Assembly: GCA_965207665.1 (NCBI GenBank)
Contig: CBDBMV010000002.1
Coordinates: 2,905,704-2,969,703, forward strand
DNA from: Vicinamibacterales bacterium
Lineage (GTDB): Bacteria > Acidobacteriota > Vicinamibacteria > Vicinamibacterales > UBA8438
Direction: 5' to 3'
DNA: 64,000 nucleotides
The stretch's first letter is position 1, and each line of letters opens with the position of its first letter. A program made the position numbers and the translations under genes. Positions 10,262-60,277 of this stretch are shown piece by piece. The notes under the pieces were generated by a model, which had not been told where the DNA came from, made no database searches, and saw only the letters and a list, made by a program, of their open reading frames with translations.

Positions 10262-11308
10262 ATGACGATGAGTTTTCGCAATCTGGCGGCGCTTGCAGTG
10301 GTCCTGGGTCTCGCGCTGGCGGCTGCGCCCGCCGCGGCGCAGTCGGAAACCGTAGCGCGCACGGCCTGGGGCGATCCCGACATCCAGGGCGTCTGGGACT
10401 ATCGGACGCTCACGCCGCTCGAACGGCCCCTGGAGCTGGGCGACAAGGCGTTCCTGACGCAGGAAGAGGCGGATGAACTCGAACGCGAGACGCTGGCCCG
10501 CAACGAGTTCCTGCTGAACCGCGAGCGGCAGGAGGCGACGGCCGGCGACCAGGTCGACCGGCGGGATGACGGCACGCCCGGCTTCTACAACAACTTCTGG
10601 ATGGACCGCGGCACGACGGCCATTGGCACGCGCCGCACGTCGCTCATCATCGAGCCGTCCAACGGACGCCTGCCGCCGCTGACGGCGCCGGCCGCCGCGC
10701 GCGCGGCGTCGGCGGAAGCCGAACGCATCGCGGGTGTGCGCCGCGGCATGCTGCCGGCCGCCAGCTACACGGACCTCGACGCGGGCGACCGCTGCATCCA
10801 GCACGCCAAGGCCGGTCCCCCGCTCAGCACCGGCGGCTACAACAACAACGTGCAGATCTTCCAGGCGCCCGGCTACGTGGTGCTGGTCCCGGAGCAGAAC
10901 CGCGAGTCGCGCATCGTTCCGCTCGACGGCCGGCCGCACGTGGCACCGCAGATCCGGCAGTGGATGGGCGACTCTCGCGGTCGCTGGGAAGGCGACACGC
11001 TCATCATCGAGACCGTGCACTTCAACGGCAAGCACGACCAGATCGGCCGGCCGCTGCTGAGCTGGGCCGATAACCTGCGGCTCATCGAGCGGATCACGCG
11101 GCTCGACGCCGAGAACCTGATGTACGAGTACACGGTCGACGACCCGACCATCTGGACGAGCGCCTGGACCGCCCAGCACCCGATGAAGCTGAATCCGGAG
11201 CCGCTGTACGAGTTCGCCTGCCACGAGGGGAACTACGGGCTGGAGGGCATCATGGCCGGCTCGCGCGTAGAGGAAGCCGAGGCGGAGGCGGAAGCCGCTT
11301 CCAGGTAG
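10262..11308 (+). CDS. Secreted protein of an unnamed conserved family ('X domain'), paralogue 1 of 6
   Basis: Start re-set to the ATG at 10262 (MTMSFRNLAALAVVLGLALAAAPAAAQ), with GGAGG 7 nt upstream. Family motifs: TAWGDPDIQGVW, TPLERP, RTSLIIEPSNGRLPPLT, DRC, RIVPLDGRPH, IRQWMGDSRGRWEGDTLIIET, LRLIERITR, YEFACHEGNY. Confidence 0.8.
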   Translation: MTMSFRNLAALAVVLGLALAAAPAAAQSETVARTAWGDPDIQGVWDYRTLTPLERPLELGDKAFLTQEEADELERETLARNEFLLNRERQEATAGDQVDRRDDGTPGFYNNFWMDRGTTAIGTRRTSLIIEPSNGRLPPLTAPAAARAASAEAERIAGVRRGMLPAASYTDLDAGDRCIQHAKAGPPLSTGGYNNNVQIFQAPGYVVLVPEQNRESRIVPLDGRPHVAPQIRQWMGDSRGRWEGDTLIIETVHFNGKHDQIGRPLLSWADNLRLIERITRLDAENLMYEYTVDDPTIWTSAWTAQHPMKLNPEPLYEFACHEGNYGLEGIMAGSRVEEAEAEAEAASR

Positions 11309-11320
11309 GTCCCGGATAGG

Positions 11321-12802: not shown

Positions 12803-12899
12803 GACCTTCCCTCTGGAAGCCCGTATTGCAACCCCGCCGCGGAGCTGCCGGGATGGCGACAAACGGGGCGGCGACATCCGCGTCAAGCGGTCGGCGCCC

Positions 12900-12986: not shown

Positions 12987-13004
12987 ACGTGTTGAAGCCG
13001 CCGG

Positions 13005-26872: not shown

Positions 26873-26941
26873 TCTCGACACCCCCTTGGGACTTCCCGTT
26901 TGTGTTCGCCGTGCTGCTTCCCGTTAGCGGCATAGAGTCTA

Positions 26942-30258: not shown

Positions 30259-30448
30259 TCTCGTTACCCCCCTCGGATTCTCTACCGTGTATTCAGCGCC
30301 GTTCCGGCTGACGGTTTGCGACCTCCTTTCACCTGCCGTCCCCAAGGGCCGGATGCTGCGCTATGGCAGCCCGACCTCGCATACTAGCGCACGATTCCAC
30401 GCAAAAAGTCAAGTAGCGCGGGATATTCTTGCGGCGCCGCGAAACTCG

Positions 30449-46395: not shown

Positions 46396-46504
46396 CTCCG
46401 CATCGTACACGATCGGTACTGTGCTACCCTGCCACCGATACCGGGGGCGAACGCCGCCACCGTCCCGACCCCCAAACGCGCACGCGGAGAGGAGCACGGG
46501 CGCC

Positions 46505-48259: not shown

Positions 48260-48300
48260 CGCGAGCATCCCGCGGCTCCTGACGACGGAGGGAAACGTCA

Positions 48301-49374
48301 ATGGCACGACTGCGCAACCTCGCCCGGCTGCTCGCCGTCGTGGGCGCATTCTGGCTGGCCGCCGGCATCGCCGGCCAGGAGCTGCCGCCCTGGTCGACAG
48401 CGCCCGAAGGCTGGACGCCGGCGCTGACGCCATGGGGTGTGCCGGACCTGACCGGGATCTGGAGCAGCAAGCACAGCACGCCGCTGGAGCGGCCCGAGGA
48501 GTACGCCGGCCGCGAGTTCCTCACGGACGAGGAGATCGCCGCACTCGATACGGAGCGGGCACGCGCGGAGGTCGCGGGCGAGGTGGCCGGCCGGGACGTG
48601 CGCGCCACGACCGGCACCCCGGCCGACGTGGAGGGCGCCTACAACAACATATTCAGCACCAACCTGGGCACACGCTATAGCCGCACGAAGCGCACGGCGA
48701 TGATCGTCGATCCGCCGGACGGCCGCCTCCCGCCGTTCACCCCGGAGGCCGAGCGGAGCCGACAGGTCAGCGAGGGGCTGCGGGCCCAGGCGCGGGAGGA
48801 TCGCGAGCGCGCCGGCGTGCCGTACTTCGTCGACCTGCGCTACCGCTACGACAACCCGGAGGACACCGGCATCCTTGAGCGCTGCCAGGGTGTCCGCATC
48901 CCCTGCACGGGCGGCATCTGCGGCTTCAGCCGCATGGTGCTCGGACCCGACTCGCTGACGATCTACCACGAGCAGTCGTCGGGCGGCGGCGGGTACCGCC
49001 TGATCTGGCTGGACGGCCGTCCGCATCCGCCGGCCCACATCCGGCAGTGGCTGGGGCACTCGGTGGGCCGCTGGGAAGGCGACACGCTGGTGGTCGACAC
49101 CACGAATTTCACGCACCAGACGCCGTACCTGGGCTCCGCGGAGAACCTGCACCTCGTCGAGCGCTTCAGGCGCGTCGCCCCCGACCTCATCCAGTACCGG
49201 ATCACCGTGGAAGACGCGACCGTCTGGACGCGGCCGTGGACCATGGAGCTCGCCCTGATGCTGCAGGACAACGCCAGGAACCAGATCGGCGAGACCGGTT
49301 GCCACGAAGGCAACTACTCGATGACCAGCATGCTCGCCGGCGCGCGACTGGAAGAGGCGCGGGGTCTCCGCTAG
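48301..49374 (+). CDS. Secreted X-domain protein, paralogue 3 of 6
   Basis: 357 aa with a signal peptide. TPWGVPDLTGIW, TPLERP, RTAMIVDPPDGRLPPFT, ERC, WLDGRPHPPAHIRQWLGHSVGRWEGDTLVVDTTNF, LHLVERFRR, GCHEGNY. Closest to the X domain of 58271..60277. Confidence 0.8.
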   Translation: MARLRNLARLLAVVGAFWLAAGIAGQELPPWSTAPEGWTPALTPWGVPDLTGIWSSKHSTPLERPEEYAGREFLTDEEIAALDTERARAEVAGEVAGRDVRATTGTPADVEGAYNNIFSTNLGTRYSRTKRTAMIVDPPDGRLPPFTPEAERSRQVSEGLRAQAREDRERAGVPYFVDLRYRYDNPEDTGILERCQGVRIPCTGGICGFSRMVLGPDSLTIYHEQSSGGGGYRLIWLDGRPHPPAHIRQWLGHSVGRWEGDTLVVDTTNFTHQTPYLGSAENLHLVERFRRVAPDLIQYRITVEDATVWTRPWTMELALMLQDNARNQIGETGCHEGNYSMTSMLAGARLEEARGLR

Positions 49375-49427
49375 TCTCCTGGCGGCCTGTCGCGGGCACA
49401 CCTCCCTGCAGCAGGCCCCATGACCGC

Positions 49428-50267
49428 ATGAGTCGTGCACCGAAAGCACATCCTGCGCCCGGCGATCCGTATCTGCTGGGTACCGATCCGGAGGAAGCGC
49501 GGCGCCTCCACACGCAACACCGCCTGTGGGCGGACGCGGCGCACGACCTCTGGGACCGCGCCGGATTCGGTCCGGGCGCGCGCCTGCTCGATCTCGGCTG
49601 CGGCCCGGGTTTCGCCGCCCTCGAGCTGGCGGAGCGGGTGGGCGCCGGGGGCCGGGTGCTGGCCATCGACGAGTCGGACCGCTTCATCGCCGGCCTGGTC
49701 CGGGAAGCGAACCGGCTCGGTATCGGGCAGCTTGCGGCACGCGTGCAGCGGGTCGAGGAGCTGCGGCTGGAGCCTGCCGCGCTCGACGGCGCCTTCATAC
49801 GCTGGCTCTTCTGCTTCCTGCCGGATCCGGCGCCGGTCATCGACAGTGTCGTGAGCGGATTGCGACCCGGCGGCCGTCTCGTGGTGTGGGACTACCTCAA
49901 CTACGGCGCGACGACGCTGCAGCCGCGGAGTCCGGCATTCGATCGGGTGCTGGCAGCGGTAGAGGAAAGCTGGCGGCGCACCGGCGGCGACCTGAACGTG
50001 GGCGGCCGCCTTCCAGAGCTGATCGCGGCGTCCGGCTGCCGCCTGCTGGAGCTTGTGCCGCTGGCGCGGTTCGTCCGGCCGGGCACGGCGTTCTGGGACT
50101 GGCCGACGCAGTTCTTCTTCAGCCACGTGCCGCGGCTGGTCGCGGCCGGCCTGCTCACGGAGGCCGAACAGCGCGCGTTCGAAGACGAATGGCGCGTTCG
50201 CGAGCGCGAGCCCGGGACCTTCCTGGCCGCGCCGCCGATGATCGGGATCGTCGGCGAGAAGGAATAA
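49428..50267 (+). CDS. Class I SAM-dependent methyltransferase
   Basis: Start re-set to the ATG at 49428 (MSRAPKAHPAPGDPYLLG...). SAM-binding motif I is LLDLGCGPG, followed by ...GGRVLAIDES.... Confidence 0.8.
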   Translation: MSRAPKAHPAPGDPYLLGTDPEEARRLHTQHRLWADAAHDLWDRAGFGPGARLLDLGCGPGFAALELAERVGAGGRVLAIDESDRFIAGLVREANRLGIGQLAARVQRVEELRLEPAALDGAFIRWLFCFLPDPAPVIDSVVSGLRPGGRLVVWDYLNYGATTLQPRSPAFDRVLAAVEESWRRTGGDLNVGGRLPELIAASGCRLLELVPLARFVRPGTAFWDWPTQFFFSHVPRLVAAGLLTEAEQRAFEDEWRVREREPGTFLAAPPMIGIVGEKE

Positions 50268-50291: not shown

Positions 50292-51254
50292 CTACGGAGC
50301 GCTGCGGCGCTCTGCCGCGCGCACGCCGCTCAGGATGTTCGGCACGGCGTAGTTCGCCTCGTGACAGGCGTATTCGTACAGGTCGTAACCTTCATCGCGC
50401 TCCAGCGGGAATGCGACCGTCCACGCCCGCGTCCAGGTGAGCGGGTCCTCGATGCGCACCTCGTAGTCGAGCGCGCCGCCGTCCCCCAGGCGGAACCGCT
50501 CGACGAGCCGTAGCTCCGTGCTGGTCGGGTTCCCGTTGCCGTTGCGCGCGTAGGAGCCGGTCCGGCCGTTTGAATTCGTCGTTTCGACAACCAGGGTGTC
50601 CCCTTCCCACACGCCGCGCGAATCGCCCATCCACTGCCGGATGCCGGCGGCGATGTGCGGGCGCCCGTCGAGCGGAATCACGCGGGTCTCGTGCACCATC
50701 TCGTGGTGAATCACGACCTGTCCCGGCGTCTGGAGGATCTGGTACGCGGAGGCATAGATGTTGGGAAACTGGGAGCCCAGCACGCCGCGGCTGATGCAGC
50801 GGTCGTAGGGCCGCAGGTCCTCCGGGCCGGCGTGCGCGTAGTCTCCCGCCGCCTTCGTCCGCCAGACTGCCGCCCGGCGGGCGCCGTCCCCGGTCATCGC
50901 CGGCAGCCGCCCGTTCGGCGGGTCGATGACGAGCGAGGCCAGCGGCGGCGACGGCCGCCGCCGGGTCCAGCCGGCGGGTGGAACCAGCTTCGGCCGGACG
51001 CGGGCCGCGGCGGCGGCGTTGCGCGCCGCCAGCTCCTCGTCGGTCAGCACGGCACGCAGCCCGAGCTCTTCGGGGCGCTCGAACGGCACGCCGATCGCGG
51101 CGATGCTGACCCACACCCCCTGCAGGTCGGGATCGCCCCAGGGCGTCCGCGCCCCTGCGCCGGGTGACTGCGCCGCCGTTGCCGGGGGGAATATGACCCA
51201 GCTCAAAAACCCGACCGCGAGCACGCAAACCGCAATTGCCTTCAGTCTCTCCAT
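50292..51254 (-). CDS. Secreted X-domain protein, paralogue 4 of 6
   Basis: Start re-set to the ATG at 51254 (MERLKAIAVCVLAVGFLSWVIFPPATAAQ). TPWGDPDLQGVW, PFERP, LVIDPPNGRLPAMT, DRC, HETRVIPLDGRPH, IRQWMGDSRGVWEGDTLVVETTN, LRLVERFR, YEYACHEANY. Confidence 0.8.
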   Translation of the reverse strand: MERLKAIAVCVLAVGFLSWVIFPPATAAQSPGAGARTPWGDPDLQGVWVSIAAIGVPFERPEELGLRAVLTDEELAARNAAAAARVRPKLVPPAGWTRRRPSPPLASLVIDPPNGRLPAMTGDGARRAAVWRTKAAGDYAHAGPEDLRPYDRCISRGVLGSQFPNIYASAYQILQTPGQVVIHHEMVHETRVIPLDGRPHIAAGIRQWMGDSRGVWEGDTLVVETTNSNGRTGSYARNGNGNPTSTELRLVERFRLGDGGALDYEVRIEDPLTWTRAWTVAFPLERDEGYDLYEYACHEANYAVPNILSGVRAAERRSAP

Positions 51255-51266: not shown

Positions 51267-51872
51267 ATGCGTCAGTATATGGGCGGATTCCCCATGCCAG
51301 TCGTGCGCCGCGCCGCAGCCATCCTCGTTGTTCTGGCAGCCGTGCCGGTCATCGCGGCCGCGCAGGAGCAGCGGCTGGCTACCGGGTACTGGACGCGCGG
51401 CCTGGCCGGCGGCTGGGGCAACGCCTGGAAGCACGGCCTGCCGGGTTACGGCAAGACAGACACCGACATCGAATTCGTTGCCGTTCACCCGCAGCTCGGC
51501 CGGTTCATCACCGACCACCTCGAGTTCTACGGCGAGGGCACGCTGCTGCTGTACCACAAGCCGGTGGTTGCGGTCGGCGGCGGCGTCGCGGGGCTGGGCG
51601 GCCGCTACCATCTCTGGAACGACCGCGGCTGGACGCCCTACTTCGCGGGCGGCGCCGGACTGCTATGGACGTCGCTAGACGTCCCTGAAATCGATCGCGC
51701 GTTCAACTTCCAGTTGCACTACGGCGTCGGCATCCGGCAGGTCACCCGGCGCGGACCGGGATTGATCCTGGAGTTCCGCAACCACCACATCTCCAACGCC
51801 AACACCGCCGGGGAGAATCTCGGCGTGAACGCCGCCACGGTGGTGGCCGGCGTGCAGTGGATCCTGCGCTAG
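51267..51872 (+). CDS. PagL-like lipid A deacylase / acyloxyacyl hydrolase family outer-membrane protein
   Basis: 201 aa with a signal peptide. The beta-barrel-like alternation and the FRNHHISNA motif (H-x-S-N, the catalytic His/Ser pair of the PagL family), followed by ...NLGVN. Confidence 0.65.
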   Translation: MRQYMGGFPMPVVRRAAAILVVLAAVPVIAAAQEQRLATGYWTRGLAGGWGNAWKHGLPGYGKTDTDIEFVAVHPQLGRFITDHLEFYGEGTLLLYHKPVVAVGGGVAGLGGRYHLWNDRGWTPYFAGGAGLLWTSLDVPEIDRAFNFQLHYGVGIRQVTRRGPGLILEFRNHHISNANTAGENLGVNAATVVAGVQWILR

Positions 51873-53215
51873 AGGTCCGTCAGGCCTTCGATCTTGCCCG
51901 TGCTGTCGCCGAGCGTCTCGACCGGAAAGCCCATCTTCTCCAGGACGGAGACGTGCAGGTTCGTCAACGGCCGTTTCGAGTAGCGCACGTAGCGGCCGCC
52001 CCTGATCCCGGTGCCCTTCCCGCCGATCAGCGCGATCGGCAGATCGTCGTGGAAGTGCGTGTTGCTGTCGCTCATCCCGCTGCCGTAGAGGAACATCGAG
52101 TGGTCGAGCAGCGTCCCGTCACCCTCGGGCGTCGCGGCGAGCTTCTTTACCAGGTGGGCGAACTGCCGGAAGTGGAACTCGTTGAGCTGGCCGAGCCGCG
52201 CGAGCTTGGTGGGCTCGTCCTGATGATGCGACAGCGGGTGATGCGAGTCGGCAATCCCGATCTCGGGATAGGCCCGGTTGCTGACTTCTTTAGCGGCCAT
52301 GAACGTGCTGACCCGCGTCATGTCGGTCTGGTACGCCAGCGCCAGCAGATCCATCATCAACGTCGCGTGCTCCCCGTAGTCTCGCGGCACGCCGACCGGC
52401 TGGTCGACCACCGGCAGCTCCTGCGTCTCACGCTCGGCCATCTGCAGCCGCCGCTCGATGTCGCGTACGGCTTCGAAGTACTGCTCCAGCGTCGCCTGGT
52501 CCCGGGGACCGACGACGTTCTCGAGACCGGCCGCCTGCTCGCGCACGAAGTCGAGAATGCTGCGGTCCTTCCGCATGCGCGCGCGGCGGACTGCCGGATC
52601 GGTGCTGCCGCTGGCCCCGAACAGCCGCTCGAACACGGCCCGGGGGTTGTTCTCGATCGGCAGCGGCGTCGTGGGGGTGCGCCAGGCAATCGTGTTGAGA
52701 TACGCGCAGGTGACGCCGCCGTCGCAGGTCGAGCCGGCGAAACCGGGATCCTCCATCCCCAGCTCCAGGGACGCGAGCTGGGTCTCCTTCGCCAGCTCCC
52801 TGGCGGCAATCTGGTCCATGGAGACGGCGGCGCGCGCCGTCCCGCTCGTGTCGAACGCCACGCCGGTCAGGAACGGACCGGACGACTTCGAGTGGTCGCC
52901 GCCGCGCAGCAAGAGCGCGGCCTCGCAGGCCAGGCCGCCGCACATGAGCACGCGGTCCTTGTGCTCGTTCAGTGAACGGAGAATCGGCGGGAGCTCGTCG
53001 AGGGAGCCTTCTCCCATGCCGGCCGGATACCAGTAGGGCATCGACATGCCGTTCGGCACGTAGAACACGCCGAGCCGGCGGATCGGCGCCGCGGCCGTCC
53101 TGCTCATCGCGGTGAGCGCCGGCACCATGCCCTCGAGGAGCGGCAGCGCCAGCGTAGCGCCGACGCCGCGCAACACCGTCCGCCGCGGCAGATGCTTTCT
53201 CGTTATGAACATCAT
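51869..53215 (-). CDS. DUF1552 domain protein (Tat signal)
   Basis: 448 aa. MMFITRKHLPRRTVLRGVGATLALPLLEGM is the characteristic DUF1552 N-terminus. Its start overlaps the stop of the upstream DUF1592-type gene (ATGA). Confidence 0.85.
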   Translation of the reverse strand: MMFITRKHLPRRTVLRGVGATLALPLLEGMVPALTAMSRTAAAPIRRLGVFYVPNGMSMPYWYPAGMGEGSLDELPPILRSLNEHKDRVLMCGGLACEAALLLRGGDHSKSSGPFLTGVAFDTSGTARAAVSMDQIAARELAKETQLASLELGMEDPGFAGSTCDGGVTCAYLNTIAWRTPTTPLPIENNPRAVFERLFGASGSTDPAVRRARMRKDRSILDFVREQAAGLENVVGPRDQATLEQYFEAVRDIERRLQMAERETQELPVVDQPVGVPRDYGEHATLMMDLLALAYQTDMTRVSTFMAAKEVSNRAYPEIGIADSHHPLSHHQDEPTKLARLGQLNEFHFRQFAHLVKKLAATPEGDGTLLDHSMFLYGSGMSDSNTHFHDDLPIALIGGKGTGIRGGRYVRYSKRPLTNLHVSVLEKMGFPVETLGDSTGKIEGLTDL

Positions 53216-55596
53216 GGCTCCGGCACTTCCCGCATCCGGAACGCCTCGCTCGACGCGACGGCCAGCACGAGCGTCGACCAGCGGTTGTCGCTCGCCTCGA
53301 GCTCTCTCACCATACGCCGGATGGTCGGTGCATCACGATAGCTCAACCCGCGGCCCAGCGCATAGGTCAGCAGCTTTTCCGCTGCGGTGCGCACGAAAGC
53401 ACGATCGCCCTGCCGGAGCAACGCCTCCCGGAAGGCGGACGGACTATCGACGATCTCACCGGACAGCTCGATCGTTGCGTTGATGTCCGCGCCCTCGTCG
53501 GTTTCGCGCCACTGGCCGACCGCATCGTAGTGCTCCAGCGCGAAGCCCAACGGATCGATCAGGTTGTGGCAGCTCGCGCAGACGGGGTTGCCGCGATGCT
53601 GCTCCATCCGCTCTCGCAGCGATGCGGGCGCCTCGCCGGCCTCGTTCTCCTCGAGCGCCGGCACGTTCGGCGGGGGCGGCGGTGGCGGTGACCCCAGCAG
53701 GTTCTCCAGGATCCACTTCCCGCGCAGCACGACCGACGTCCGGTTCGGATACGAGGTGACGGTGAGCACGCTGCCGTGCCCGAGCAGCCCGAAGCGCCGG
53801 TCGTCATCCAGCGTCACCCGGCGCAGGTGACTCCCGTAGATGTCGTCAATCCCGTAGTGGCGCGCCAGGCGCTCGTTCAGGAACGTGTAGTCGGCGCGCA
53901 GCAACTCGGGAATCGGCCTGTCCTCGCGCAACTGGCTCTCGAAGAAGAGCTTCGTCTCGCGCACCATCGCGTCGCGCAGCGTCGGGTCGAAGCCGCGAAA
54001 GAGGCGCCGGTCCGGCTCGTGGGAGCGCAGGTTACGCACCTGCAGCCACTGCTCCACGAAGTCATCCATGAAACGCGTCGCGCGACGGTCGCCGAGCATG
54101 CGGCGGACCTGCTCCAACAGCGTGCCCGGCTCGGACAAACGACCCTCGGCGGCCAGGTCGAGCAGCTCGTCATCCGGGATGCTGCGCCAGAGGAAGAACG
54201 ACAACCTGGATGCCAGCTCGACATCGCTCAACCGGTAGACCGTTCCGGGCGCCACTCCGTCCGGGTCGCTTTCAACGCGGATGAGGAAGTGCGGAGACGA
54301 CAGCACGCCCTCCAGGGCCAGTCCGACCCCGGCTTCGAATCCGCCGTCTGACCGGCCCGCCCGGTAGAGGTCGACGAGGGGCTCGACGTCGGACTCGGTC
54401 AGCGGGCGACGATACGCCCGCCGCGCGAGCCGCTGGATGATCTCCCGCGCGCACGACTCGTCATCGGCGCCGGCGTTCGTCCCGGCGGGCCGGCAGACGA
54501 GCACCCGGCGCCGACTCGGCGTCTCGTCCGGCACCGTGCCGTCGAACGGGCCCGAGATCTCCAGTTGATCGACACCCACTGGTGAACCGGGGTTGACCGC
54601 CGACGGCATCGAGTTCGTGAAGGCCGCGGCCACGGTCCGCGTGCCGGCCTCGATCCGCACGCGCACTTCCAGGTCGTCGTCGGCGTGCATGAGGTACTCG
54701 TGCACCTGCTGGCCCAGGACGTCGTCCTCGTCAATCGCGACCATCGTTCCGGAATTCAGCAGGCCCTTGTAGCGGCCGCCGATCGTGAAGCGTTTGATCA
54801 GCGCGTGGTCCACGCGCAACTCGATCTGGTGCTCGTCCTCTTCAATGCCCGCCACCCCTCCGCTGCCCCGCTTCAGGCGCAGCCTGAAGACGTAGTCCCC
54901 ATCGAGCGGGAAGTTGTGTCGCACCGCCACGCCGCCGCGCGTGGCGAACGGCATGTTCTCGCCCATCCGCGCATCCTGCCGCGCGGTCGGCCGCACCTCG
55001 TAGACGTGTCCTGCCGGCCGGTTCTCGAGGCTCCCCAGCGCCATGCGGCTGATCCGCATCGCCGTGGTCATGTAGCGCGACATCAGCGCCGGTGTAATCG
55101 TCAGCGCGTCGGCGTTGTTGTCGAAGCCGAAACCGGCCAGGTCGCTGGGCAGGAGCGCGTCGCCGTCGATCTCCAGCGCCAGCAGGTCATAGACCGCGTT
55201 GACGTACTCCGTGCGGTTCAGGCGGCGGGAGGCGACCCACCCGGCGCTGGGGGCGCCGGACGCCGCGGCCGCGTCGAGCGAGGTCTCGAGCCCCGAAACG
55301 AAGTCGCTGACGACGGCCGGCTCCGGCCGTGGTCTCCCCTCGGGTGGCATCAGCCCGTCGCGAAGCTTCCGAACGACCTTCTCGAGCACCTCGGCGTTGG
55401 CCCCGACCGCGGCCACATCGACCTGCTCCAGGCTGAGCCCTCCGGTCATGAGGCGATCGTTGTGGCAGGTCACGCAGTAGCGGCCGAACAGCGGGTGCGT
55501 CGCCGGCGCAGCTTGAGCGGCGGCCGGGCGCGGAAGGACACCGGCGGCCACCACACCGGCGAGCCCGACGGCCGCGAGGATCCTGCTGCCGGGCAT
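53212..55596 (-). CDS. PSCyt3/DUF1592/DUF1588/DUF1587/DUF1585/DUF1595-type multidomain haem-binding protein
   Basis: Start re-set to the ATG at 55596 (MPGSRILAAVGLAGVVAAGVLPRPAAAQ). CVTCHN near the N-terminus and CASCHNLIDPLGFALEHYDAVGQWR near the C-terminus. This is the canonical partner of DUF1552. Confidence 0.85.
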   Translation of the reverse strand: MPGSRILAAVGLAGVVAAGVLPRPAAAQAAPATHPLFGRYCVTCHNDRLMTGGLSLEQVDVAAVGANAEVLEKVVRKLRDGLMPPEGRPRPEPAVVSDFVSGLETSLDAAAASGAPSAGWVASRRLNRTEYVNAVYDLLALEIDGDALLPSDLAGFGFDNNADALTITPALMSRYMTTAMRISRMALGSLENRPAGHVYEVRPTARQDARMGENMPFATRGGVAVRHNFPLDGDYVFRLRLKRGSGGVAGIEEDEHQIELRVDHALIKRFTIGGRYKGLLNSGTMVAIDEDDVLGQQVHEYLMHADDDLEVRVRIEAGTRTVAAAFTNSMPSAVNPGSPVGVDQLEISGPFDGTVPDETPSRRRVLVCRPAGTNAGADDESCAREIIQRLARRAYRRPLTESDVEPLVDLYRAGRSDGGFEAGVGLALEGVLSSPHFLIRVESDPDGVAPGTVYRLSDVELASRLSFFLWRSIPDDELLDLAAEGRLSEPGTLLEQVRRMLGDRRATRFMDDFVEQWLQVRNLRSHEPDRRLFRGFDPTLRDAMVRETKLFFESQLREDRPIPELLRADYTFLNERLARHYGIDDIYGSHLRRVTLDDDRRFGLLGHGSVLTVTSYPNRTSVVLRGKWILENLLGSPPPPPPPNVPALEENEAGEAPASLRERMEQHRGNPVCASCHNLIDPLGFALEHYDAVGQWRETDEGADINATIELSGEIVDSPSAFREALLRQGDRAFVRTAAEKLLTYALGRGLSYRDAPTIRRMVRELEASDNRWSTLVLAVASSEAFRMREVPEP

Positions 55597-55600
55597 CGGG

Positions 55601-57229
55601 CTAGTTCTGCTGCTGACCTGCGCCGGCTGCGGCATCCTCTACGGAAACGTCGCGGAGGCGTTCCTGCACCGTCGCCGCCAAACCGAGGCTGGTGTCGGCC
55701 CCCAGCTCCTCCAGCAGCGCCGCCGTCTCGGGGAATTCCTGGAAGTAGAAGGACTGCTTGCTGCCTTCCGCCAGGCGGTACGGCGTGCGGCCCCGGAAGT
55801 CGCGTGCGTCGATGTCGGCGCCGTGGTTCACCAGGATCCGGATGACCTCGTTGAGCCCGCGGAACGCCGCGCCGTGGAGGGCCGTGAAGTCGGCTTCGTT
55901 GCGGGCTTCGACGGCGGCTCCGGCGTCCAGCAGGAGCGTCACGGCCGCCTCCGAGCTGGACGACCGCTTGCCGCGCCGCAGGTTCTTGTCGTTCGTATAG
56001 CGGCCCAGCCCCGCCGCCACCATGAGCGGCGTCGTGCCGTCGTCGGTGGCCAGGGTCGGGTCGGCGCCGGCAGCCAGCAGCCGCCGCATGACCTCGACGC
56101 CCTCTTCGCCGCCCTGGCACCCCGCGCCGCCGCACCCGGTGGGAATCGCAATACCGAATATCGGCTTGCCGTTCGCGCCCATGGAGGCAATCCACAAAGG
56201 CGTGGCGCCACGGAGGTCCCCCACGCCGGACGTATAGGTATCGAACGCGCCCCTGCGCGGGTACCCGAGATACTCCTCGAACACCGCGGAGTCCGTGATC
56301 CGCGCGTTCGGGTCGGCCCCGCGGGCAAGGAGCGCCTCGACGAGCGGCAGCCGCTGGCTCTCCGCCAACCCGCGGCCCCGGCTCGCGGCGCCGTGCTTCT
56401 GGTTCCACTCGGCCAGCCAGAACGCCATGTGTCCGGTCGCCGCGTGCAGGGCGGTCACGCCCGACACCTTCGCATTGGGGTCGGCGCCCTCTTCGAGCAG
56501 GAAGTGCGCAAACTCCGCCTGCCCGAGGACGATGGAGTACGGCAGCACGTGCGCCCCGTCCGCACCAACGGCGTCGATGTCGACACCGGCCACCAGCAGC
56601 GTGCGGGCCATCTCGATGTCGCCGTTGCGGGCGGCGATCATGAGGAGGGTGAACCCCTTGGCGGTCGAGACATCCAGATCCGCGCCGTGCTCTATCAGGC
56701 GATGGACGATGTCGGCGTACTGCCCTGCCACCGCCCACATCAGCGCGGTGTTGTGCGTCTCGACCGTCGCGGCGTTGACGTCGGCGCCCGCCGCCAGCAG
56801 CAGCCTGACGACCTCCGCGTTGCCGGTCTCGACCGCGGTCATGAGCGGCGTCAACCCGCTCGTCTGCGCCGCGTTCGGGTCGGCGCCTGCGTCGAGCAAC
56901 CGCTCGACCATGCCCGGACTGGCGTTCTCGCAGGCCCGCGCCAGCGCCGTCACGCCGTGGTCGTCGGCGGCGTTGACATTCGCGCCGGCCCGGAGCAGGA
57001 CGCCGGCCGCCTCCACGTCGTCCCAATGCGCGGCGTAGACGAGAGCCGTGACGCCGTCCGCCCGCGCGGCGTTCGCGTCAACGCCTTCCGCCAGCAGCGC
57101 CCGCGCGGCGGCCCAATCCTGATCCGCGGCGGCGTCGACCAGCCGCGCACCGTCCTGCCCGGCGGCCGGCGGGGCCGCCAACGCCAGCAAAGTGGCGGCA
57201 GCAGCCACACGGCCCATGTTCGAGGTCAT
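55601..57229 (-). CDS. Secreted ankyrin-repeat protein
   Basis: Signal peptide (MTSNMGRVAAAATLLALAAPPAAGQ), then many ANK units (e.g. DGVTALVYAAHWDDVEAAGVLLRAGANVNAADDHGVTAL, SGLTPLMTAVETGNAEVVRLLLAAGADVNA). It ends 4 nt before the next gene. Confidence 0.85.
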   Translation of the reverse strand: MTSNMGRVAAAATLLALAAPPAAGQDGARLVDAAADQDWAAARALLAEGVDANAARADGVTALVYAAHWDDVEAAGVLLRAGANVNAADDHGVTALARACENASPGMVERLLDAGADPNAAQTSGLTPLMTAVETGNAEVVRLLLAAGADVNAATVETHNTALMWAVAGQYADIVHRLIEHGADLDVSTAKGFTLLMIAARNGDIEMARTLLVAGVDIDAVGADGAHVLPYSIVLGQAEFAHFLLEEGADPNAKVSGVTALHAATGHMAFWLAEWNQKHGAASRGRGLAESQRLPLVEALLARGADPNARITDSAVFEEYLGYPRRGAFDTYTSGVGDLRGATPLWIASMGANGKPIFGIAIPTGCGGAGCQGGEEGVEVMRRLLAAGADPTLATDDGTTPLMVAAGLGRYTNDKNLRRGKRSSSSEAAVTLLLDAGAAVEARNEADFTALHGAAFRGLNEVIRILVNHGADIDARDFRGRTPYRLAEGSKQSFYFQEFPETAALLEELGADTSLGLAATVQERLRDVSVEDAAAGAGQQQN

Positions 57230-57289
57230 AGCCGCTTTCCCACGTCCATAGTAGCTGGATCTCACGGCTTCAGCCATGCGCTGACCGGG

Positions 57290-58228
57290 CTACCGCGACC
57301 GGTCGCCATCGCGCGCCCGCGCGCCGCGCAGGATGTTGAGCATGCCGTAGTTGCCCTCGTGGCAGGCGTATTCGAACAGCGTCCCGTCCAGTGCGGTCAT
57401 GGGTATCGAAGCGCTCCACGGCGCGGCGTACGTCGTGGGATCGAAAACCGTGAACTCGTAATCGATCGCATCCGCGCCCACGCGCGTGAACCGCTCGACC
57501 AGCCGCAGGTTCTCTCCGGCCCCGAGCACGAGCGGCAGGCCGCTGGTTGCGCTCAGCGCACGCTCGTCGGCCTTGGCGTCGAAGTTCGTGGTCTCGACAA
57601 CCAGGGTCTCGCCTTCCCACCGTGCGCGCGAGTCGCCCAGCCACTGCCGAATCCGCGCCGGCAGGTGCGGTCGTCCATCCAGCGGGATGACGCGTGCCTC
57701 GTGGACCATCTCGACCAGAATCACGACGTAGTCCGGCGTCTGAACGATCTGGTAGTTGTGGTTGTAGAAGCCGGGAATCATCGCGCCGGGCAGCCCGCGC
57801 GTGATGCAGCGGTCGTACAGGTTCAAGTCGGCGAACGAGTCCGGGTCGGTCACGCCGCGCCGCGCGTCGGCGAAGAACGCGTCCTTCGCGCGGACGCGCT
57901 CGGTCAGCGCGGGCAGCCGGCCATCGGACGGATCGATGATGAGGGTCGCCTGCGCCGACCCACCTCCCGATTCCAGCCAGAAGCTGTTGTAGGCGCCGGT
58001 GGCGTTGTTGGCCTGCCGTTCACCGCCGCGCGTGAACCGTTCGTCCCGCTCGGACCGCTCCTCGTCAGTGAAAGGCCGCTGGAATGGAGTTGTGGTCGTG
58101 TTGGTCCAGGCGCCCTGCAGGTCGGGATCGCCCCAGGGCGTGCGCCAGGTCTGTTCACCACCCGGTTGTGCGCCGAACAGGCCGGGCGCCGGCAGGATAC
58201 ACAGCATCAACAGGATTGCCCGTTTCAT
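57290..58228 (-). CDS. Secreted X-domain protein, paralogue 5 of 6
   Basis: Start re-set to the ATG at 58228 (MKRAILLMLCILPAPGLFGAQ). TPWGDPDLQGAW, LIIDPSDGRLPALT, DRC, HEARVIPLDGRPH, IRQWLGDSRARWEGETLVVETTNF, LRLVERFTR, FEYACHEGNY. Confidence 0.8.
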   Translation of the reverse strand: MKRAILLMLCILPAPGLFGAQPGGEQTWRTPWGDPDLQGAWTNTTTTPFQRPFTDEERSERDERFTRGGERQANNATGAYNSFWLESGGGSAQATLIIDPSDGRLPALTERVRAKDAFFADARRGVTDPDSFADLNLYDRCITRGLPGAMIPGFYNHNYQIVQTPDYVVILVEMVHEARVIPLDGRPHLPARIRQWLGDSRARWEGETLVVETTNFDAKADERALSATSGLPLVLGAGENLRLVERFTRVGADAIDYEFTVFDPTTYAAPWSASIPMTALDGTLFEYACHEGNYGMLNILRGARARDGDRSR

Positions 58229-58270
58229 CACCCACCTCGCTGTTGCAGTCCGCATGTCGGCCCTCCCGGA

Positions 58271-60277
58271 TCAGCGTGACCCCAGGCGCTCCAGCCGGCG
58301 CGCGCCGGCCAGGATGTTCGTCAGCGCGTAGTTTCCCTCGTGGCACGCGGCCTCGTAGATCTGGTTGCGGCGGTTGTCCTCCTCCGCCAGCGGGAGCTCG
58401 ATTGTCCACGGCCGCGTCCATACCGTCGGATCGTCGACGGTCACCCGATGAATGAGCCGGTCGGGGCCGACCCGCGTGAAGCGTTCGACGAGGTGGAGAT
58501 TGTCGCGCGAGCCGCGGAAGCTGGTCCTGGACGTGAAGTTCGTGACGTCCACCACCAGCGTGTCGCCCTCCCAGTGCCCTTTCGAGTGCCCGAGCCACTG
58601 GCGAACATGGGCCGGCGGGTGCGGGCGGCCGTCGAGATGGATCGTGCGGTAGGCGCCGCCGTGATGGCCGTACTCCTGGTAGATCGTTACCGCCGACGGG
58701 CTCTGGACGATGCGGCTGAAGGTGCCCGTGCTCACCCGAACGAACGGCAACGTGACACCCAGGCAGCGGTCGCTCGGACGGTCCTCCGGATTGTCGGTGT
58801 TCTCGCTGCTGCCGGCATCGACGAAGTATGGAATCGGATCGCCCTCGGCAGTGGTGGCAAGGGGCGCGCCGCCGCGGCGGCCGTCGCGCACGCCGCGCGC
58901 CCGGGCGTCCGCGGTGAGCGGCGGCATCCTGCCGTCCGGCGGATCGACGATCAGGGAGGTGCGCCTGGTCCAGATCACCCGGTCGCCGCGGCCGGTGAAC
59001 GCGTCGTTGTACGCGCCCTCGACGTCGGCGACGGTGCCGCCTTCCGGGCGGAAGTCGCGACCCGGCGAGGCTTCCTGCGCCCCCTCCAGCTCGGCGACCT
59101 CCGCGTCGGTCAGGTACTCGCGCCCGTCGAACCGCGGGGGACGTTCCAGCGGCGTCAGCGTATAGCCGGGGCTCCAGATGCCCTGGAGGTCGGGATGCCC
59201 CCATGCCGTGCGCGGCGGTTTCCAGGCGCCGGCATCGGCCGCGGGCGCGGGCGGGCCGGGTATGCGGCCCTCCGTGTTCAGCCGGATACGGTAGATCCCC
59301 GTCCGCGCCGTGATGTACAGCGTACGGCCGTCATCGCCCCATGCGAGGTTGGCGGGCGCCTCGGCCGGGCTGATCGTGCCGAGGTGGTCTCCACCGGGCG
59401 ACAGCAGCCAGATGCCGCCCGGACCCGTCGCAAACACGTTGCCCGCCAGATCGACCTTCATGCCATCGCGTCCGCCCGTGAGCGCCGGGTCGTCGATCGC
59501 GTAGAAGACGCGCCCGTTCGTGGCGCCGCCGGGGCCCAGGTCGTAAGCCTTCCAGGGACCGCGCGTGTTGGCGACGTACAGCGTCCGTTCGTCGGGCGAC
59601 AGCGCGATGCCGTTGGGCGCGTCCTCCCTGGCAAGCAGCTCGAGGCGGCCGTCCGTGTGCAGCCGGTAGACGCCGTTGTAGTCGAGCTCGCGGAGCGGGG
59701 ATTCCTCGTACCCGTCCAGGCCGTACGACGGATCGGTGAAGTACAGCGTCCCATCTGCGGCGATGTCGATGTCGTTGGGGCTGTTGAGGCGCCTGCCCTC
59801 GTAGCTGTCCGCGAGCACGGTGCGGGTGCCGTCGGCTTCGATGCGCGAAACCACCCGGTTGCCGTGCTCGCAGATGACGAGGCGTCCCTCGGCGTCGATG
59901 GTCAAGCCGTTCGGCGTGGGGTTGCGCCCCGTGAGATCACCTTCGAACCACGGCGCGCGAAAGACGCTCGCGCCTTCGGCCGCGGTCCACTGGTAGATGT
60001 GCCGGTCGCGGACTTCGGAAAACAGCAGGCGCGACTCGCTCCGCACCCACACCGGCCCCTCCGTGAACATGTAGCCGTCGGCGAGCTTCTCGATGCGTGC
60101 GCCGGCCGGGACCAGGGCGTCCAGACGCGGGTCGACGCGAAGGATCGTCCCGTCGCCGGCCGGCTCGGGCGCCGCCGGCACACGCGCACCCGCCGTGGAT
60201 CGGTCGGGCGCCGGGGGCACACCGCACGCGGCCGCGACGGCGCCGAGACACAGCAAGGCGAGCAGCGGAGATCTCAT
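58271..60277 (-). CDS. Lipoprotein fusion: SMP-30/gluconolactonase/LRE-like six-bladed propeller + X domain (paralogue 6 of 6)
   Basis: The track ORF 58271..61798 is over-extended. The ATG at 60277 gives MRSPLLALLCLGAVAAACG (lipobox). SGL motifs: FTEGPVW, PNGLTIDAEGRLVICEHG, NSPNDIDIAADGTLYFTDP, PNGIALSPDERTLYVANT, DGMKVDLAGNVFAT. The X domain begins at about 59225: RTAWGHPDLQGIW, TPLERP, SLIVDPPDGRMPPLT, DRC, HLDGRPHPPAHVRQWLGHSKGHWEGDTLVVDVTNF, LHLVERFTR, EAACHEGNY. Confidence 0.8.
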   Translation of the reverse strand: MRSPLLALLCLGAVAAACGVPPAPDRSTAGARVPAAPEPAGDGTILRVDPRLDALVPAGARIEKLADGYMFTEGPVWVRSESRLLFSEVRDRHIYQWTAAEGASVFRAPWFEGDLTGRNPTPNGLTIDAEGRLVICEHGNRVVSRIEADGTRTVLADSYEGRRLNSPNDIDIAADGTLYFTDPSYGLDGYEESPLRELDYNGVYRLHTDGRLELLAREDAPNGIALSPDERTLYVANTRGPWKAYDLGPGGATNGRVFYAIDDPALTGGRDGMKVDLAGNVFATGPGGIWLLSPGGDHLGTISPAEAPANLAWGDDGRTLYITARTGIYRIRLNTEGRIPGPPAPAADAGAWKPPRTAWGHPDLQGIWSPGYTLTPLERPPRFDGREYLTDAEVAELEGAQEASPGRDFRPEGGTVADVEGAYNDAFTGRGDRVIWTRRTSLIVDPPDGRMPPLTADARARGVRDGRRGGAPLATTAEGDPIPYFVDAGSSENTDNPEDRPSDRCLGVTLPFVRVSTGTFSRIVQSPSAVTIYQEYGHHGGAYRTIHLDGRPHPPAHVRQWLGHSKGHWEGDTLVVDVTNFTSRTSFRGSRDNLHLVERFTRVGPDRLIHRVTVDDPTVWTRPWTIELPLAEEDNRRNQIYEAACHEGNYALTNILAGARRLERLGSR

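What the first reader, a model, noticed from the sequence alone, without database searches (positions are those of the whole stretch)
10262..60277. Six paralogues of an unnamed secreted ~320-aa domain (WGxPDLQGxW ... RC ... WEGDTLVVxT ... CHEGNY) in one 64-kb window
What the sequence shows: six colinear copies.
- 10262-11308 (+)
- ~47380-48259 (+, C-terminal part of a fusion)
- 48301-49374 (+)
- 50292-51254 (-)
- 57290-58228 (-)
- 58271-~59225 (-, C-terminal part of a fusion)

Shared blocks: (T/S)(P/A)WG.PD(L/I).G(V/I/A)W; P(L/F)ERP; (L/M)I(I/V)(D/E)P(P/S).GR(L/M)P; an invariant R-C; (I/V)(I/V)PLDGRPH in 5 of 6 copies; (I/V)RQW(M/L)G(D/H)S.G.WEG(D/E)(T/M)L(V/I)(V/I)(E/D)T; L.L(V/I)ERF(T/R)R; an invariant C-H-E-(G/A)-N-Y near the C-terminus. 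Every copy is behind a signal peptide or behind a secreted enzyme domain.

I cannot assign these motifs to any Pfam/DUF family I know. That reflects the limit of my recall, not a database result.

Inference: this is a periplasmic or cell-surface family under paralogous expansion. The two invariant Cys plus His/Glu could form a disulfide or a metal/cofactor site. Five copies lie within 46.5-60.3 kb.
Basis: partly seen in the sequence, partly recalled or inferred. Interest (0 to 1): 0.85.

Follow-up and report, generated by a model that had tools for sequence, protein, structure and literature searches.

The report
Unnamed secreted beta-barrel protein family array
The window really holds six old, diverged copies of a very large secreted protein family that no database names; the family probably handles small molecules in the periplasm of soil and marine Acidobacteria, but its function is still unknown.

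Summary
Six colinear paralogues lie at the stated places. They share 34-54% amino-acid identity and at most about 68% nucleotide identity over long stretches, so they are not assembly artefacts. Four stand alone behind signal peptides. One is fused behind a double VOC/glyoxalase domain and one behind an SGL gluconolactonase-like lipoprotein.

The domain has no Pfam, NCBIfam or PDB sequence match, yet the family is huge: 27,030 clusters at 50% identity. Most of the closest relatives are from Vicinamibacterales.

AlphaFold (pLDDT 80) predicts an N-terminal lobe (WGxPDLQGxW strand plus helices) on a 10-stranded up-and-down barrel. That barrel resembles FABP/CRBP calycins only weakly. Two Cys and a set of Glu/Arg/Gln/Asn residues are at least 99% conserved.

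A shorter sister subfamily keeps both Cys but not the His/GNY. It pairs with DUF6152 and reaches sphingomonad plasmids.

Five of the six copies have 1:1 orthologues (83-88%, dN/dS 0.14-0.22) in related genomes, so the array is old and maintained. Neighbours are periplasmic enzymes and TonB-dependent receptors; PQQ dehydrogenases are often directly adjacent.

Best reading: an autonomous, disulfide-stapled periplasmic module that binds or converts small molecules. This is a new family of unknown function and a strong DUF candidate.

The parts
10262..11308 (+). Copy 1: stand-alone precursor of 348 aa (signal peptide plus domain), subfamily B1.
   Evidence: Translation; alignment A1; subfamily HMM score 649. 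Orthologues at 65-97% identity in many assemblies.
46502..48259 (+). Copy 2: fusion protein of 585 aa. Signal peptide, then two VOC/glyoxalase modules (about 46502-47344), then the family domain (47345-48259).
   Evidence: PF00903 at 4.8e-20 with 2 stretches. Domain located by HMM. The same VOC-X architecture occurs in P0183, L074 and L087.
48301..49374 (+). Copy 3: stand-alone precursor of 357 aa, subfamily A (extra insert and extra Cys). It lies 41 nt downstream of copy 2.
   Evidence: Orthologues at 86-92% identity.
49428..50267 (+). Class I SAM methyltransferase without a signal peptide. It is the conserved third gene of the module VOC-X -> X -> MTase.
   Evidence: Pfam Methyltransf_31/11/25. 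The same gene order is seen in L085, L086 and L087.
50292..51254 (-). Copy 4: stand-alone precursor of 320 aa. It is divergent from a PagL-like gene at 51267-51872 (+).
   Evidence: PagL PF09411. The X/PagL pair is also found in L087.
57290..58228 (-). Copy 5: stand-alone precursor of 312 aa, subfamily B5. This copy was used for the structure prediction.
58271..60277 (-). Copy 6: fusion lipoprotein of 668 aa. Lipobox signal, then an SGL/gluconolactonase-like beta-propeller (about 59264-60277), a short Pro/Ala linker, then the family domain (58271-59263, subfamily A).
   Evidence: PF08450 at 8.4e-38. PDB 3e5z and 3dr2 gluconolactonases at 4e-47 and 6e-37. In relatives the two parts are separate genes.
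60664..61950 (-). Two genes upstream on the same strand: a 3-keto-disaccharide hydrolase-like protein (60664-61302) and an ICMT/PEMT-like membrane methyltransferase (61339-61950).
   Evidence: Pfam results. An ICMT/PEMT gene also precedes the family gene, one unnamed 344-aa gene away, in L001. 3keto-disac_hyd and DUF1295 lie nearby in L085 and L086.
51869..57277 (-). Genes between copy 5 and copy 4 on the minus strand: ankyrin-repeat protein (55601-57277), PSCyt1/PSD3/PSD5/PSD4/PSCyt3/PSD2 protein (53212-55635) and DUF1552 (51869-53215). These are context, not an obligatory part of the feature.
   Evidence: Pfam results. The order DUF1592 -> DUF1552 -> X recurs in L010, L040, L046, L051 and L070. 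This block is absent from the orthologous array of the closest relatives.

Best explanation
Each copy encodes a member of a very large, so far unnamed family of secreted (periplasmic, sometimes lipid-anchored) proteins of about 290 mature residues.

Predicted architecture. An N-terminal lobe holds the WGxPDLQGxW strand, three helices and the PPDGRLP strand. It packs on a C-terminal 10-stranded up-and-down beta-barrel of the calycin (FABP/CRBP-like) kind, followed by a C-terminal helix.

Inferred features:
- The two invariant Cys (in DRC before the barrel and in CHEGNY after it) form a disulfide that staples the pre-barrel and post-barrel segments.
- The nearly invariant polar residues lie on inward-facing strand positions and at the barrel exit. 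In HMM numbering they are Gln185, Glu195, Arg201, Glu260, Glu302, Glu307 and Asn309. Together they form one conserved site that binds, and possibly converts, a small polar organic molecule. A carboxylate, lactone or carbonyl compound is the most plausible type.
- The protein works on its own in the periplasm, alongside imported-substrate catabolic enzymes (PQQ and sugar dehydrogenases, lactonases, VOC enzymes, esterases, amidohydrolases) and TonB-dependent receptors.
- The many old paralogues differ in specificity.

What is shown and what is inferred. Shown: family size, secretion signals, conservation, fold prediction, fusions and neighbourhoods. Inferred: the disulfide, the location of the site, and the ligand class. 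Whether the protein is an enzyme or a carrier is not decided; I lean slightly to enzyme.
For: Real genes:
- High third-position GC marks copies 1-5 as coding; the copy-6 frame did not pass that script's filter.
- dN/dS is 0.14-0.22 against orthologues for copies 2-6.

Family size: 27,030 clusters at 50% identity at E<=1e-3, and 14,439 at E<=1e-10.

No named family. NCBI names the relatives 'hypothetical protein'.

Fold:
- The AF2 model has pLDDT 80 and pTM 0.83, with 10 consecutive strands at 138-259.
- The top Foldseek PDB hits are all CRBP/CRABP/FABP/SAHS (prob 1.0, E about 1e-3, TM to target about 0.5) in both models.

Conservation:
- R162-C163, Q185, E195, R201, G220, L231, E260, E302, C305, E307 and N309 are at least 99% conserved in 672 near-full-length sequences.
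- Strand periodicity places E260 on the same face as L258 and F262, and E195/R201 on the same face as L193/I203. This is read from the sequence plus the secondary structure.
- Both Cys are kept in the sister subfamily, which is homologous at hhalign probability 100% and E 6e-45.

Rosetta-stone fusions, always with the family domain C-terminal:
- VOC, which is recurrent.
- SGL lactonase. This is a recent fusion of two genes that are neighbours in relatives.
- A prenyltransferase/SQHop-cyclase-like repeat.

Neighbourhood:
- PQQ dehydrogenase is present in 27 of 82 loci, and 23 of 41 such ORFs lie within 2 kb of a family gene.
- GSDH, beta-lactamase-like, MBL, cyclase, FAH, amidohydrolase and TBDR genes recur.

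Autonomy: in the closest relatives the same five paralogues are kept while the genes between them are exchanged.
Against:
- The two most conserved motifs (DRC and CHEGNY) have only pLDDT about 60-65. The predicted site is therefore the least certain part of the model.
- Fold matches are weak (no Foldseek hit at E<=1e-3; TM about 0.5) and cover only the barrel half.
- The barrel could be filled by the protein's own N-terminal segment instead of a ligand.
- The neighbouring gene types are all abundant in these genomes, and no genome-wide baseline could be computed. Part of the co-localisation may therefore only reflect 'periplasmic enzyme islands'.
- A C-terminal position in three unrelated fusions would also fit a generic accessory or docking module.
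Confidence: 0.45

Rival explanations
1. The family is a dedicated periplasmic partner of PQQ-dependent dehydrogenases. Paralogues of the family pair with paralogues of quinoproteins. They might hold or deliver the scavenged cofactor (PQQ, Ca or lanthanide), activate the apo-enzyme (as MxaJ/XoxJ are thought to do), or take over the product or electrons.
For: - PQQ-ADH-type dehydrogenases occur in 27 of 82 loci and are concentrated next to family genes: 13 ORFs within 500 nt and 23 of 41 within 2 kb.
- They occur in both gene orders and are often co-oriented.
- The unrelated PQQ enzyme GSDH is also directly adjacent in L002, L022, L003 and L088.
- Vicinamibacteria that carry PqqU lack PQQ synthesis and must scavenge it, and a periplasmic PQQ binder (PqqT) exists elsewhere (PMC12124388).
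- Several invariant Arg, Trp, Gln and Asn residues could bind a tricarboxylate (inference).
Against: - 55 of 82 loci have no such dehydrogenase within 10 kb.
- In the window the only PQQ dehydrogenase (932-3445) is 7 kb from copy 1 and far from the other five copies.
- The sister subfamily on sphingomonad plasmids has no quinoprotein next to it.
- The fusions are to VOC and SGL, not to quinoproteins.
- There is no genome-wide baseline for PQQ-dehydrogenase density.
Confidence: 0.15
2. The proteins act as hetero-oligomeric or accessory subunits. Tandem genes of different subfamilies would form A/B heterodimers. Alternatively, the family supplies a third component to other unknown periplasmic systems: the DUF6152 partner, or the PSCyt3-type protein plus DUF1552.
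For: - 30 of 36 adjacent co-oriented family gene pairs combine different subfamilies.
- Both window tandems combine one A-type and one B-type copy (2+3 and 6+5), and both are conserved in L085-L087.
- The cassette sister-subfamily -> full-length -> DUF6152 occurs in about 13 loci, and sister + DUF6152 pairs occur in Novosphingobium and Sphingobium.
- DUF1592 -> DUF1552 -> X is co-oriented in at least 5 loci.
Against: - 35 of 82 loci have a single copy.
- Copies 1 and 4 stand alone in the window.
- The ankyrin/DUF1592/DUF1552 block is missing from the orthologous array of the closest relatives.
- In the window copy 4 is separated from DUF1552 by a PagL gene on the other strand.
- The hetero-subfamily excess is modest. 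About 13 same-class pairs would be expected by chance and 6 were observed, and the sampling was biased.
- No multimer prediction could be run.
Confidence: 0.12
3. The conserved Cys/His/Glu residues form a metal or redox-cofactor site. The protein would then be a metallochaperone, a copper or iron protein, or a non-covalent haem binder like nitrobindin or nitrophorin barrels.
For: - C163, C305, E302 and E307 are at least 99% conserved and H306 is 94% conserved.
- These motifs have low pLDDT despite extreme conservation, as cofactor-dependent segments often do.
- Many neighbours and both fusion partners are metalloenzymes: VOC, SGL, MBL, amidohydrolase and PQQ/Ca enzymes.
- The DUF6152 partner starts its mature chain with His-His.
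Against: - His306 and the G-N-Y are lost in the sister subfamily while both Cys stay. This fits a disulfide better than a Cys/His site.
- There is no CxxCH or CxxC motif in any of the six copies.
- Dozens of paralogues per genome would be unusual for a chaperone.
- There is no structural match to cupredoxins, and nitrophorins appear only far down the Foldseek lists.
Confidence: 0.1
4. The repeats are not a real biological feature: an assembly artefact, or spurious ORFs in GC-rich DNA.
For: Many long stop-to-stop ORFs in this 70% GC DNA are spurious. Most apparent 'long fusions' in other loci had no domain in the extension.
Against: - The copies share at most about 68% nucleotide identity over long stretches.
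- Copies 1, 2, 3, 5 and 6 each have distinct orthologues at 83-97% identity in other assemblies, and copy 4 at 83-86%.
- dN/dS is 0.14-0.22.
- HMM E-values are extreme and GC3 is 0.84-0.91 in the coding frame.
Confidence: 0.01

Closest known systems
Intracellular lipid-binding proteins (FABP, CRBP, CRABP) and the FABP-like SAHS proteins of the calycin structural superfamily
   Same: The C-terminal half is predicted as a 10-stranded antiparallel up-and-down barrel of about 125 residues. These proteins are the only consistent Foldseek hits, for two independent models. In both, conserved Arg and acidic/polar residues sit on inward-facing strand positions; in FABPs such residues bind the ligand carboxylate.
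   Different: - No sequence similarity: Pfam and PDB profile searches were negative.
- TM-score is only about 0.5.
- There is no helix-turn-helix lid between the first two strands.
- A 135-residue N-terminal lobe and a C-terminal helix are added.
- The protein is secreted and has an invariant Cys pair.
- It is bacterial and occurs in multi-copy arrays.
The DUF6152-partnered sister subfamily (unnamed; 'hypothetical protein' in Novosphingobium humi and Sphingobium plasmids and in many Acidobacteriota)
   Same: It is truly homologous: hhalign probability 100%, E 6e-45 over the barrel. It keeps the PDLxGxW start, both Cys, the G.S.G.WEGDTLVV hairpin, the V.ER strand and the E..C end. It is secreted and often lies directly upstream of a full-length family gene.
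   Different: It is about 40-60 residues shorter. It has PGVPR after the first Cys. It lacks His306, G-N-Y and the C-terminal helix. It is regularly paired with a DUF6152 (PF19649) gene. None of the six window copies belongs to it.
Accessory proteins of periplasmic quinoprotein systems (MxaJ/XoxJ, PqqT)
   Same: They are periplasmic, are encoded next to PQQ dehydrogenases, and are needed for or linked to cofactor handling (PqqT: PMC12124388; MxaJ/XoxJ: general knowledge). The family is often adjacent to PQQ enzymes.
   Different: MxaJ/XoxJ and PqqT are solute-binding-protein folds. There is no sequence or fold similarity to the family, and the link to PQQ enzymes holds for only about a third of the loci.
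Planctomycete-type unknown pairs PSCyt3/PSD protein + DUF1552 and PSCyt2/PSD1 + DUF1501
   Same: They belong to the same genomic world, are equally uncharacterised (PMC5615132), and form a co-oriented DUF1592 -> DUF1552 -> X order in several loci. In the window, copy 1 lies next to a PSCyt2/PSD1 gene, and copies 5 and 6 lie upstream of the PSCyt3-type pair.
   Different: The family shows no match to any PSCyt/PSD/DUF1552 model. The linkage is absent in the closest relatives.

Membership tests
Any Pfam-A or NCBIfam family | Significant match to a curated profile HMM | tested here: not met
   The six domains gave 0 relevant families at E<=1 in Pfam and in NCBIfam. For 141 members scanned at E<=5, only scattered weak hits appeared; the most frequent was Emfourin in 11 of 141 with best E 0.0014.
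Calycin / iLBP (FABP-CRBP) fold | 10-stranded antiparallel up-and-down beta-barrel | tested here: inconclusive
   The AF2 model shows 10 consecutive strands at 138-259 with pLDDT mostly 85-98. The top 50 Foldseek PDB hits are dominated by iLBPs, but with E about 1e-3 and TM to target 0.45-0.55. This rests on a prediction only.
Calycin / iLBP (FABP-CRBP) fold | Helix-turn-helix cap between strands A and B, and the iLBP sequence signature (PF00061) | tested here: not met
   Strands 138-143 and 147-152 are joined by a 3-residue turn with no helices. There is no PF00061 hit.
Calycin / iLBP (FABP-CRBP) fold | Ligand bound in the barrel cavity | not testable with these tools
Lipocalins | 8-stranded barrel with an N-terminal GxW motif on strand A and a flanking C-terminal helix | tested here: not met
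   Ten strands are predicted. The G-R-W-E-G motif lies in the strand 4/5 hairpin, not on the first strand. There is no lipocalin Pfam hit.
c-type cytochromes / thiol-disulfide oxidoreductases | CxxCH haem-binding motif or CxxC active site | tested here: not met
   Neither motif is present in any of the six domain sequences. The two invariant Cys are about 145 residues apart.
Unnamed superfamily defined here (full-length A and B types plus the DUF6152-partnered sister type) | PDLxGxW start, first Cys before the barrel, G.S.G.WEG..L.V hairpin, V.ER strand, and E..C after the barrel | tested here: met
   All six window copies carry all of these blocks. The blocks are at least 93-99% conserved in 672 sequences. 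They are shared with the sister type.

The most novel reading that the evidence does not exclude
The family is a missing, dedicated component of periplasmic quinoprotein metabolism in PQQ-scavenging Acidobacteria and relatives. Each paralogue would serve a particular PQQ dehydrogenase, of either the 8-bladed ADH type or the 6-bladed GSDH type. It would do so by holding or delivering the scavenged cofactor or metal, or by taking over the reactive product (lactone or aldehyde) or the electrons. This would explain the parallel gene expansions, the frequent direct adjacency and the lactonase fusion.
Probability: 0.12. Interest if true: 0.8.

Novelty: new variant of a known kind. Interest (0 to 1): 0.55.

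Why it matters
A family with about 27,000 clusters at 50% identity, a dozen residues conserved at 99% or more, and multi-copy arrays kept under purifying selection is clearly important to its hosts. Those hosts are Vicinamibacterales and other Acidobacteriota, which are among the most abundant and least understood soil, marine and sponge bacteria.

Yet the family has no name, no profile, no structure and no literature. Defining it would remove thousands of 'hypothetical protein' labels. It would give a handle on the periplasmic catabolic islands of these bacteria, which hold PQQ dehydrogenases, lactonases, TonB-dependent receptors and the PSCyt/DUF1552 systems. It could also reveal a new enzyme or binding activity on a calycin-like scaffold.

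The conserved fusions and gene pairs found here (VOC-X, SGL-X, sister + DUF6152) provide concrete starting points for experiments, including in cultivable sphingomonads.

Tried and rejected
1. Apparent long fusions in other loci. The family domain sat at the end of stop-to-stop ORFs of 500-1400 aa. Twenty N-terminal extensions were scanned. Only one VOC and one BrxC (probably a separate upstream gene) matched. The rest are GC-rich ORF artefacts and were rejected as fusions.

2. The 'short form' first looked like a protein made of the C-terminal half only. Reading the sequences showed a complete but divergent sister subfamily with its own PDLxGxW start.

3. Obligatory operon with ankyrin/DUF1592/DUF1552. 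Rejected because the orthologous arrays in L085-L087 lack these genes, and because in the window a PagL gene on the other strand separates copy 4 from DUF1552.

4. A link between copy 1 and the divergent PSCyt2/PSD1 gene. It is not conserved in L088.

5. Single-linkage cluster 2 ('PQQ', 34 loci) was inflated by the 3-keto-disaccharide-hydrolase domain. It was recounted with the PQQ domain alone, giving 27 of 82 loci.

6. Literature search for the motif strings and for DUF6152 gave 0 papers. The DUF1552/PSCyt literature says the function is unknown.

7. Look-ups of P0089 and P0001 to see more of the source contig returned nothing on record.

8. Foldseek against viral structures found nothing.

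9. The Emfourin hits (11 of 141, E>=0.0014) were treated as chance. The matched region was not examined.

10. The promoter/terminator scan was not informative in this GC-rich DNA.

Full report
**1. Observation**

Translating the six stated intervals gives six colinear proteins or protein parts. In a MAFFT alignment (A1) they share 45 invariant columns.

An HMM built from the six finds exactly these six ORFs in the window and no others. Pairwise identity is 34-54% at the protein level. At the DNA level it is at most about 68% over stretches of several hundred bases. This excludes duplicated or collapsed assembly.

Third-position GC is 0.84-0.91 in the coding frames of copies 1-5; the copy-6 frame did not pass that script's filter.

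Minor corrections:
- The copy-2 domain is in frame from 47381.
- Only LDGRPH, not the full (I/V)(I/V)PLDGRPH, is shared by five of six copies.

Four copies are stand-alone precursors with classical signal peptides. Copy 2 (46502-48259) is signal peptide + two VOC/glyoxalase modules + domain. Copy 6 (58271-60277) is a lipobox signal + SGL/gluconolactonase-like propeller + domain.

**2. The family is not named anywhere but is very large**

- Pfam-A (24,736 models) and NCBIfam give no hit for the domain at E<=1.
- Scanning 141 diverse members at E<=5 gives nothing consistent.
- Profile searches of all PDB sequences give nothing.
None had a Pfam domain, and the only names were 'hypothetical protein'.
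- The exhaustive HMMER search of 1.84 billion cluster representatives gives 27,030 clusters at E<=1e-3, 14,439 at E<=1e-10 and 2,674 at E<=1e-30.
- The 80 best loci are almost all Acidobacteriota (mostly Vicinamibacterales, also Bryobacterales and Terriglobia), with a few Gammaproteobacteria such as Pseudohongiella.
- The window itself is therefore most likely from a Vicinamibacterales-like genome (inference).
- No paper contains the motif strings.

**3. Structure prediction**

With a 141-sequence alignment of three subfamilies, AlphaFold2 gives pLDDT 80 and pTM 0.83 for mature copy 5. The predicted parts are:
- an N-terminal lobe, with the WGDPDLQGAW segment as short strands (pLDDT 95), three helices and the IIDPSDGRLP strand;
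- ten consecutive strands at 138-259, mostly pLDDT 85-98;
- a C-terminal helix.

The long loop carrying D-R-C and the segment carrying C-H-E-G-N-Y are only pLDDT about 60-65.

Foldseek against the PDB gave, for this model and for an earlier shallower one, a top-50 list led by cellular retinol/retinoic-acid/fatty-acid-binding proteins and FABP-like SAHS proteins. Probability was 1.0, but E was only about 1e-3 and TM to target 0.45-0.55. The viral library gave nothing.

So the barrel resembles the 10-stranded calycin (iLBP) barrel at the level of topology only. There is no helix-turn-helix lid and no sequence relationship.

**4. Conservation**

In 672 near-full-length sequences, the following are at least 99% conserved (HMM numbering): R162-C163, Q185, E195, R201, G220, L231, E260, E302, C305, E307 and N309. 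H306 is 94% conserved.

Strand periodicity places E260 on the face of L258 and F262. It places the E195/R201 pair across the strand 2/3 hairpin, on the face of L193 and I203. These are the inward-facing, otherwise hydrophobic positions. This is an inference from the sequence and the secondary structure; no coordinates were available.

A buried, invariant carboxylate together with Arg/Gln/Glu/Asn residues near the barrel exit is the signature of a binding or catalytic site, not of a scaffold.

**5. A sister subfamily**

ORFs that first looked like 'half' proteins are a complete but divergent sister type of about 250 mature residues.
- It keeps PDLxGxW, both Cys, the G.S.G.WEGDTLVV hairpin, V.ER and E..C.
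- It lacks His306, G-N-Y and the C-terminal helix.
- It is unequivocally homologous: hhalign probability 100%, E 6e-45.
- In about 13 acidobacterial loci it lies directly upstream of a full-length member and next to a small DUF6152 protein.
- Sister + DUF6152 pairs also sit on Novosphingobium and Sphingobium plasmids. There PGAP calls the sister protein 'hypothetical protein' and the partner 'DUF6152 family protein'.

Both Cys are retained while the His is lost. This is the best available argument that the Cys pair is a disulfide and not part of a Cys/His metal site.

**6. The array is old and maintained**

In related metagenome-assembled genomes (L085-L087), copies 2, 3, 4, 5 and 6 each have a 1:1 orthologue at 83-88% identity, with dN/dS 0.14-0.22. 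Copy 1 has orthologues up to 97% identical elsewhere.

Three small modules are conserved:
- VOC-X -> X (A type) -> cytoplasmic SAM methyltransferase (window 46502-50267);
- X (A type) -> X (B type) (window 60277-57290);
- X (copy 4) divergent from a PagL-like gene.

The genes between the modules differ. The relatives have an amidohydrolase, an AAA_14 gene and a TonB-dependent receptor where the window has ankyrin, a PSCyt3-type protein and DUF1552.

In the relatives the copy-6 orthologue is a stand-alone precursor with its own signal peptide. The SGL lipoprotein is a separate gene about 1.4 kb away, ending ...EGRIPGP*. In the window the same C-terminus runs on through PAPAADAGAWKPP into RTAWGHPDLQGIW. 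The SGL-X fusion is therefore a recent event that joined two already neighbouring genes.

**7. Neighbourhoods across 82 other loci**

- 47 loci have 2-6 family genes within about 21 kb.
- Adjacent co-oriented pairs are mostly of different subfamilies: 30 of 36.
- An unbiased all-against-all clustering of ORFs and a recount with the PQQ domain alone show PQQ dehydrogenases in 27 of 82 loci. They are concentrated next to family genes: 23 of 41 lie within 2 kb.
- Other recurrent neighbours are DUF6152 (17 loci), the DUF1592-type protein (15) and DUF1552 (12), which are co-oriented as DUF1592 -> DUF1552 -> X in at least 5 loci.
- A 480-aa protein carrying a CxxCH motif and lacking any Pfam match recurs in 12 loci. 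MBL, beta-lactamase-like, NHL, GSDH, cyclase, FAH, amidohydrolase and TonB-dependent receptor genes also recur.
- In at least three loci (L012, L036, L054) the receptor is directly upstream and co-oriented.
- Precomputed Pfam tables of five further loci agree with this picture.
- All of these are secreted or outer-membrane proteins of substrate acquisition and periplasmic catabolism.
- The PSCyt/DUF1552 systems are themselves of unknown function (PMC5615132).

**8. Interpretation**

The most economical reading is an autonomous periplasmic protein with one conserved polar site on a disulfide-stapled calycin-like barrel. It binds, and possibly converts, small polar organic molecules. It has diversified into many specificities and occasionally fuses to enzymes of the same compartment (VOC, lactonase). 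I give this 0.45. Enzyme versus carrier is open.

Rivals:
- A dedicated partner of PQQ enzymes (0.15). This is attractive because of the adjacency to two unrelated PQQ enzyme folds and because these bacteria scavenge PQQ (PMC12124388). However, the link holds for only a third of the loci and not in the window.
- A hetero-oligomeric or accessory subunit (0.12).
- A metal or redox site (0.10).
- An artefact (0.01).

**9. Verdict**

This is a real, very large, unnamed family with a weak calycin-like fold resemblance. Its kind (a secreted small-molecule beta-barrel) is known; the family, its two-lobe architecture, its sister type and its gene partnerships are new.

Interest is moderate to good (0.55). 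It is a strong candidate for a new DUF and for experimental work, but nothing found so far overturns existing knowledge.

Noticed in passing
window 13005-14423 (-) and 41568-43010 (-), the latter followed by 40627-about 41600 (-): Two paralogous proteins of about 475 aa with no Pfam match and a CxxCH motif (CQRCH, read in the 41568-43010 copy). One is paired with a 300-370 aa protein that also has no Pfam match. The same pair (clusters c8 and c17) recurs near family genes in about 12 and 7 other loci. It may be another unnamed periplasmic haem-protein system.
   Followed up: partly
window 932-3445 (-) and 60664-61302 (-): A PQQ dehydrogenase carries an N-terminal 3-keto-disaccharide hydrolase (DUF1080-type) domain. 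A stand-alone copy of that domain lies directly upstream of the SGL-X fusion.
   Followed up: partly
window 61339-61950 (-); L001 8133-8750; L085 and L086 5459-6326: A small membrane methyltransferase-like gene (ICMT/PEMT in the window and in L001, DUF1295 in L085 and L086) recurs a few genes upstream of family arrays in different genomes.
   Followed up: no
window 7425-10232 (-) and 51869-55635 (-): Both types of 'planctomycete-specific' cytochrome systems are present in this acidobacterial window: a PSCyt1-PSCyt2-PSD1 protein, and a PSCyt1/PSD3/PSD5/PSD4/PSCyt3/PSD2 protein with its DUF1552 partner. An ankyrin-repeat protein with a signal peptide (55601-57277) lies directly upstream of the latter.
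   Followed up: partly
L053 7106-7666, L083 8522-8905, L084 8595-9008 and 9843-10253: In the one DUF6152 partner read in full (L053), the predicted mature chain starts with His-His right after the signal-peptide cleavage site (AWA|HHAFTAEFD). This is reminiscent of N-terminal histidine-brace copper sites. No literature on DUF6152 was found.
   Followed up: partly
window 62552-63559 (-): An IstB-like (IS21 helper ATPase) match covers only the C-terminal third of a GC-rich ORF. This suggests an insertion-sequence remnant at the edge of the gene island.
   Followed up: no
window 23657-26881 (-) and 27061-30345 (-): Two tandem outer-membrane proteins of about 1,080 aa with CarboxypepD_reg domains (TonB-dependent-receptor-like). 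They are flanked by dienelactone hydrolase, esterase, amidohydrolase and Tct transporter genes, so the whole window looks like a substrate-acquisition island.
   Followed up: no
L048 6959-10048: A monothiol bacilliredoxin BrxC-like domain lies in frame just upstream of a family domain. It was not checked whether this is a true fusion or a separate gene.
   Followed up: no
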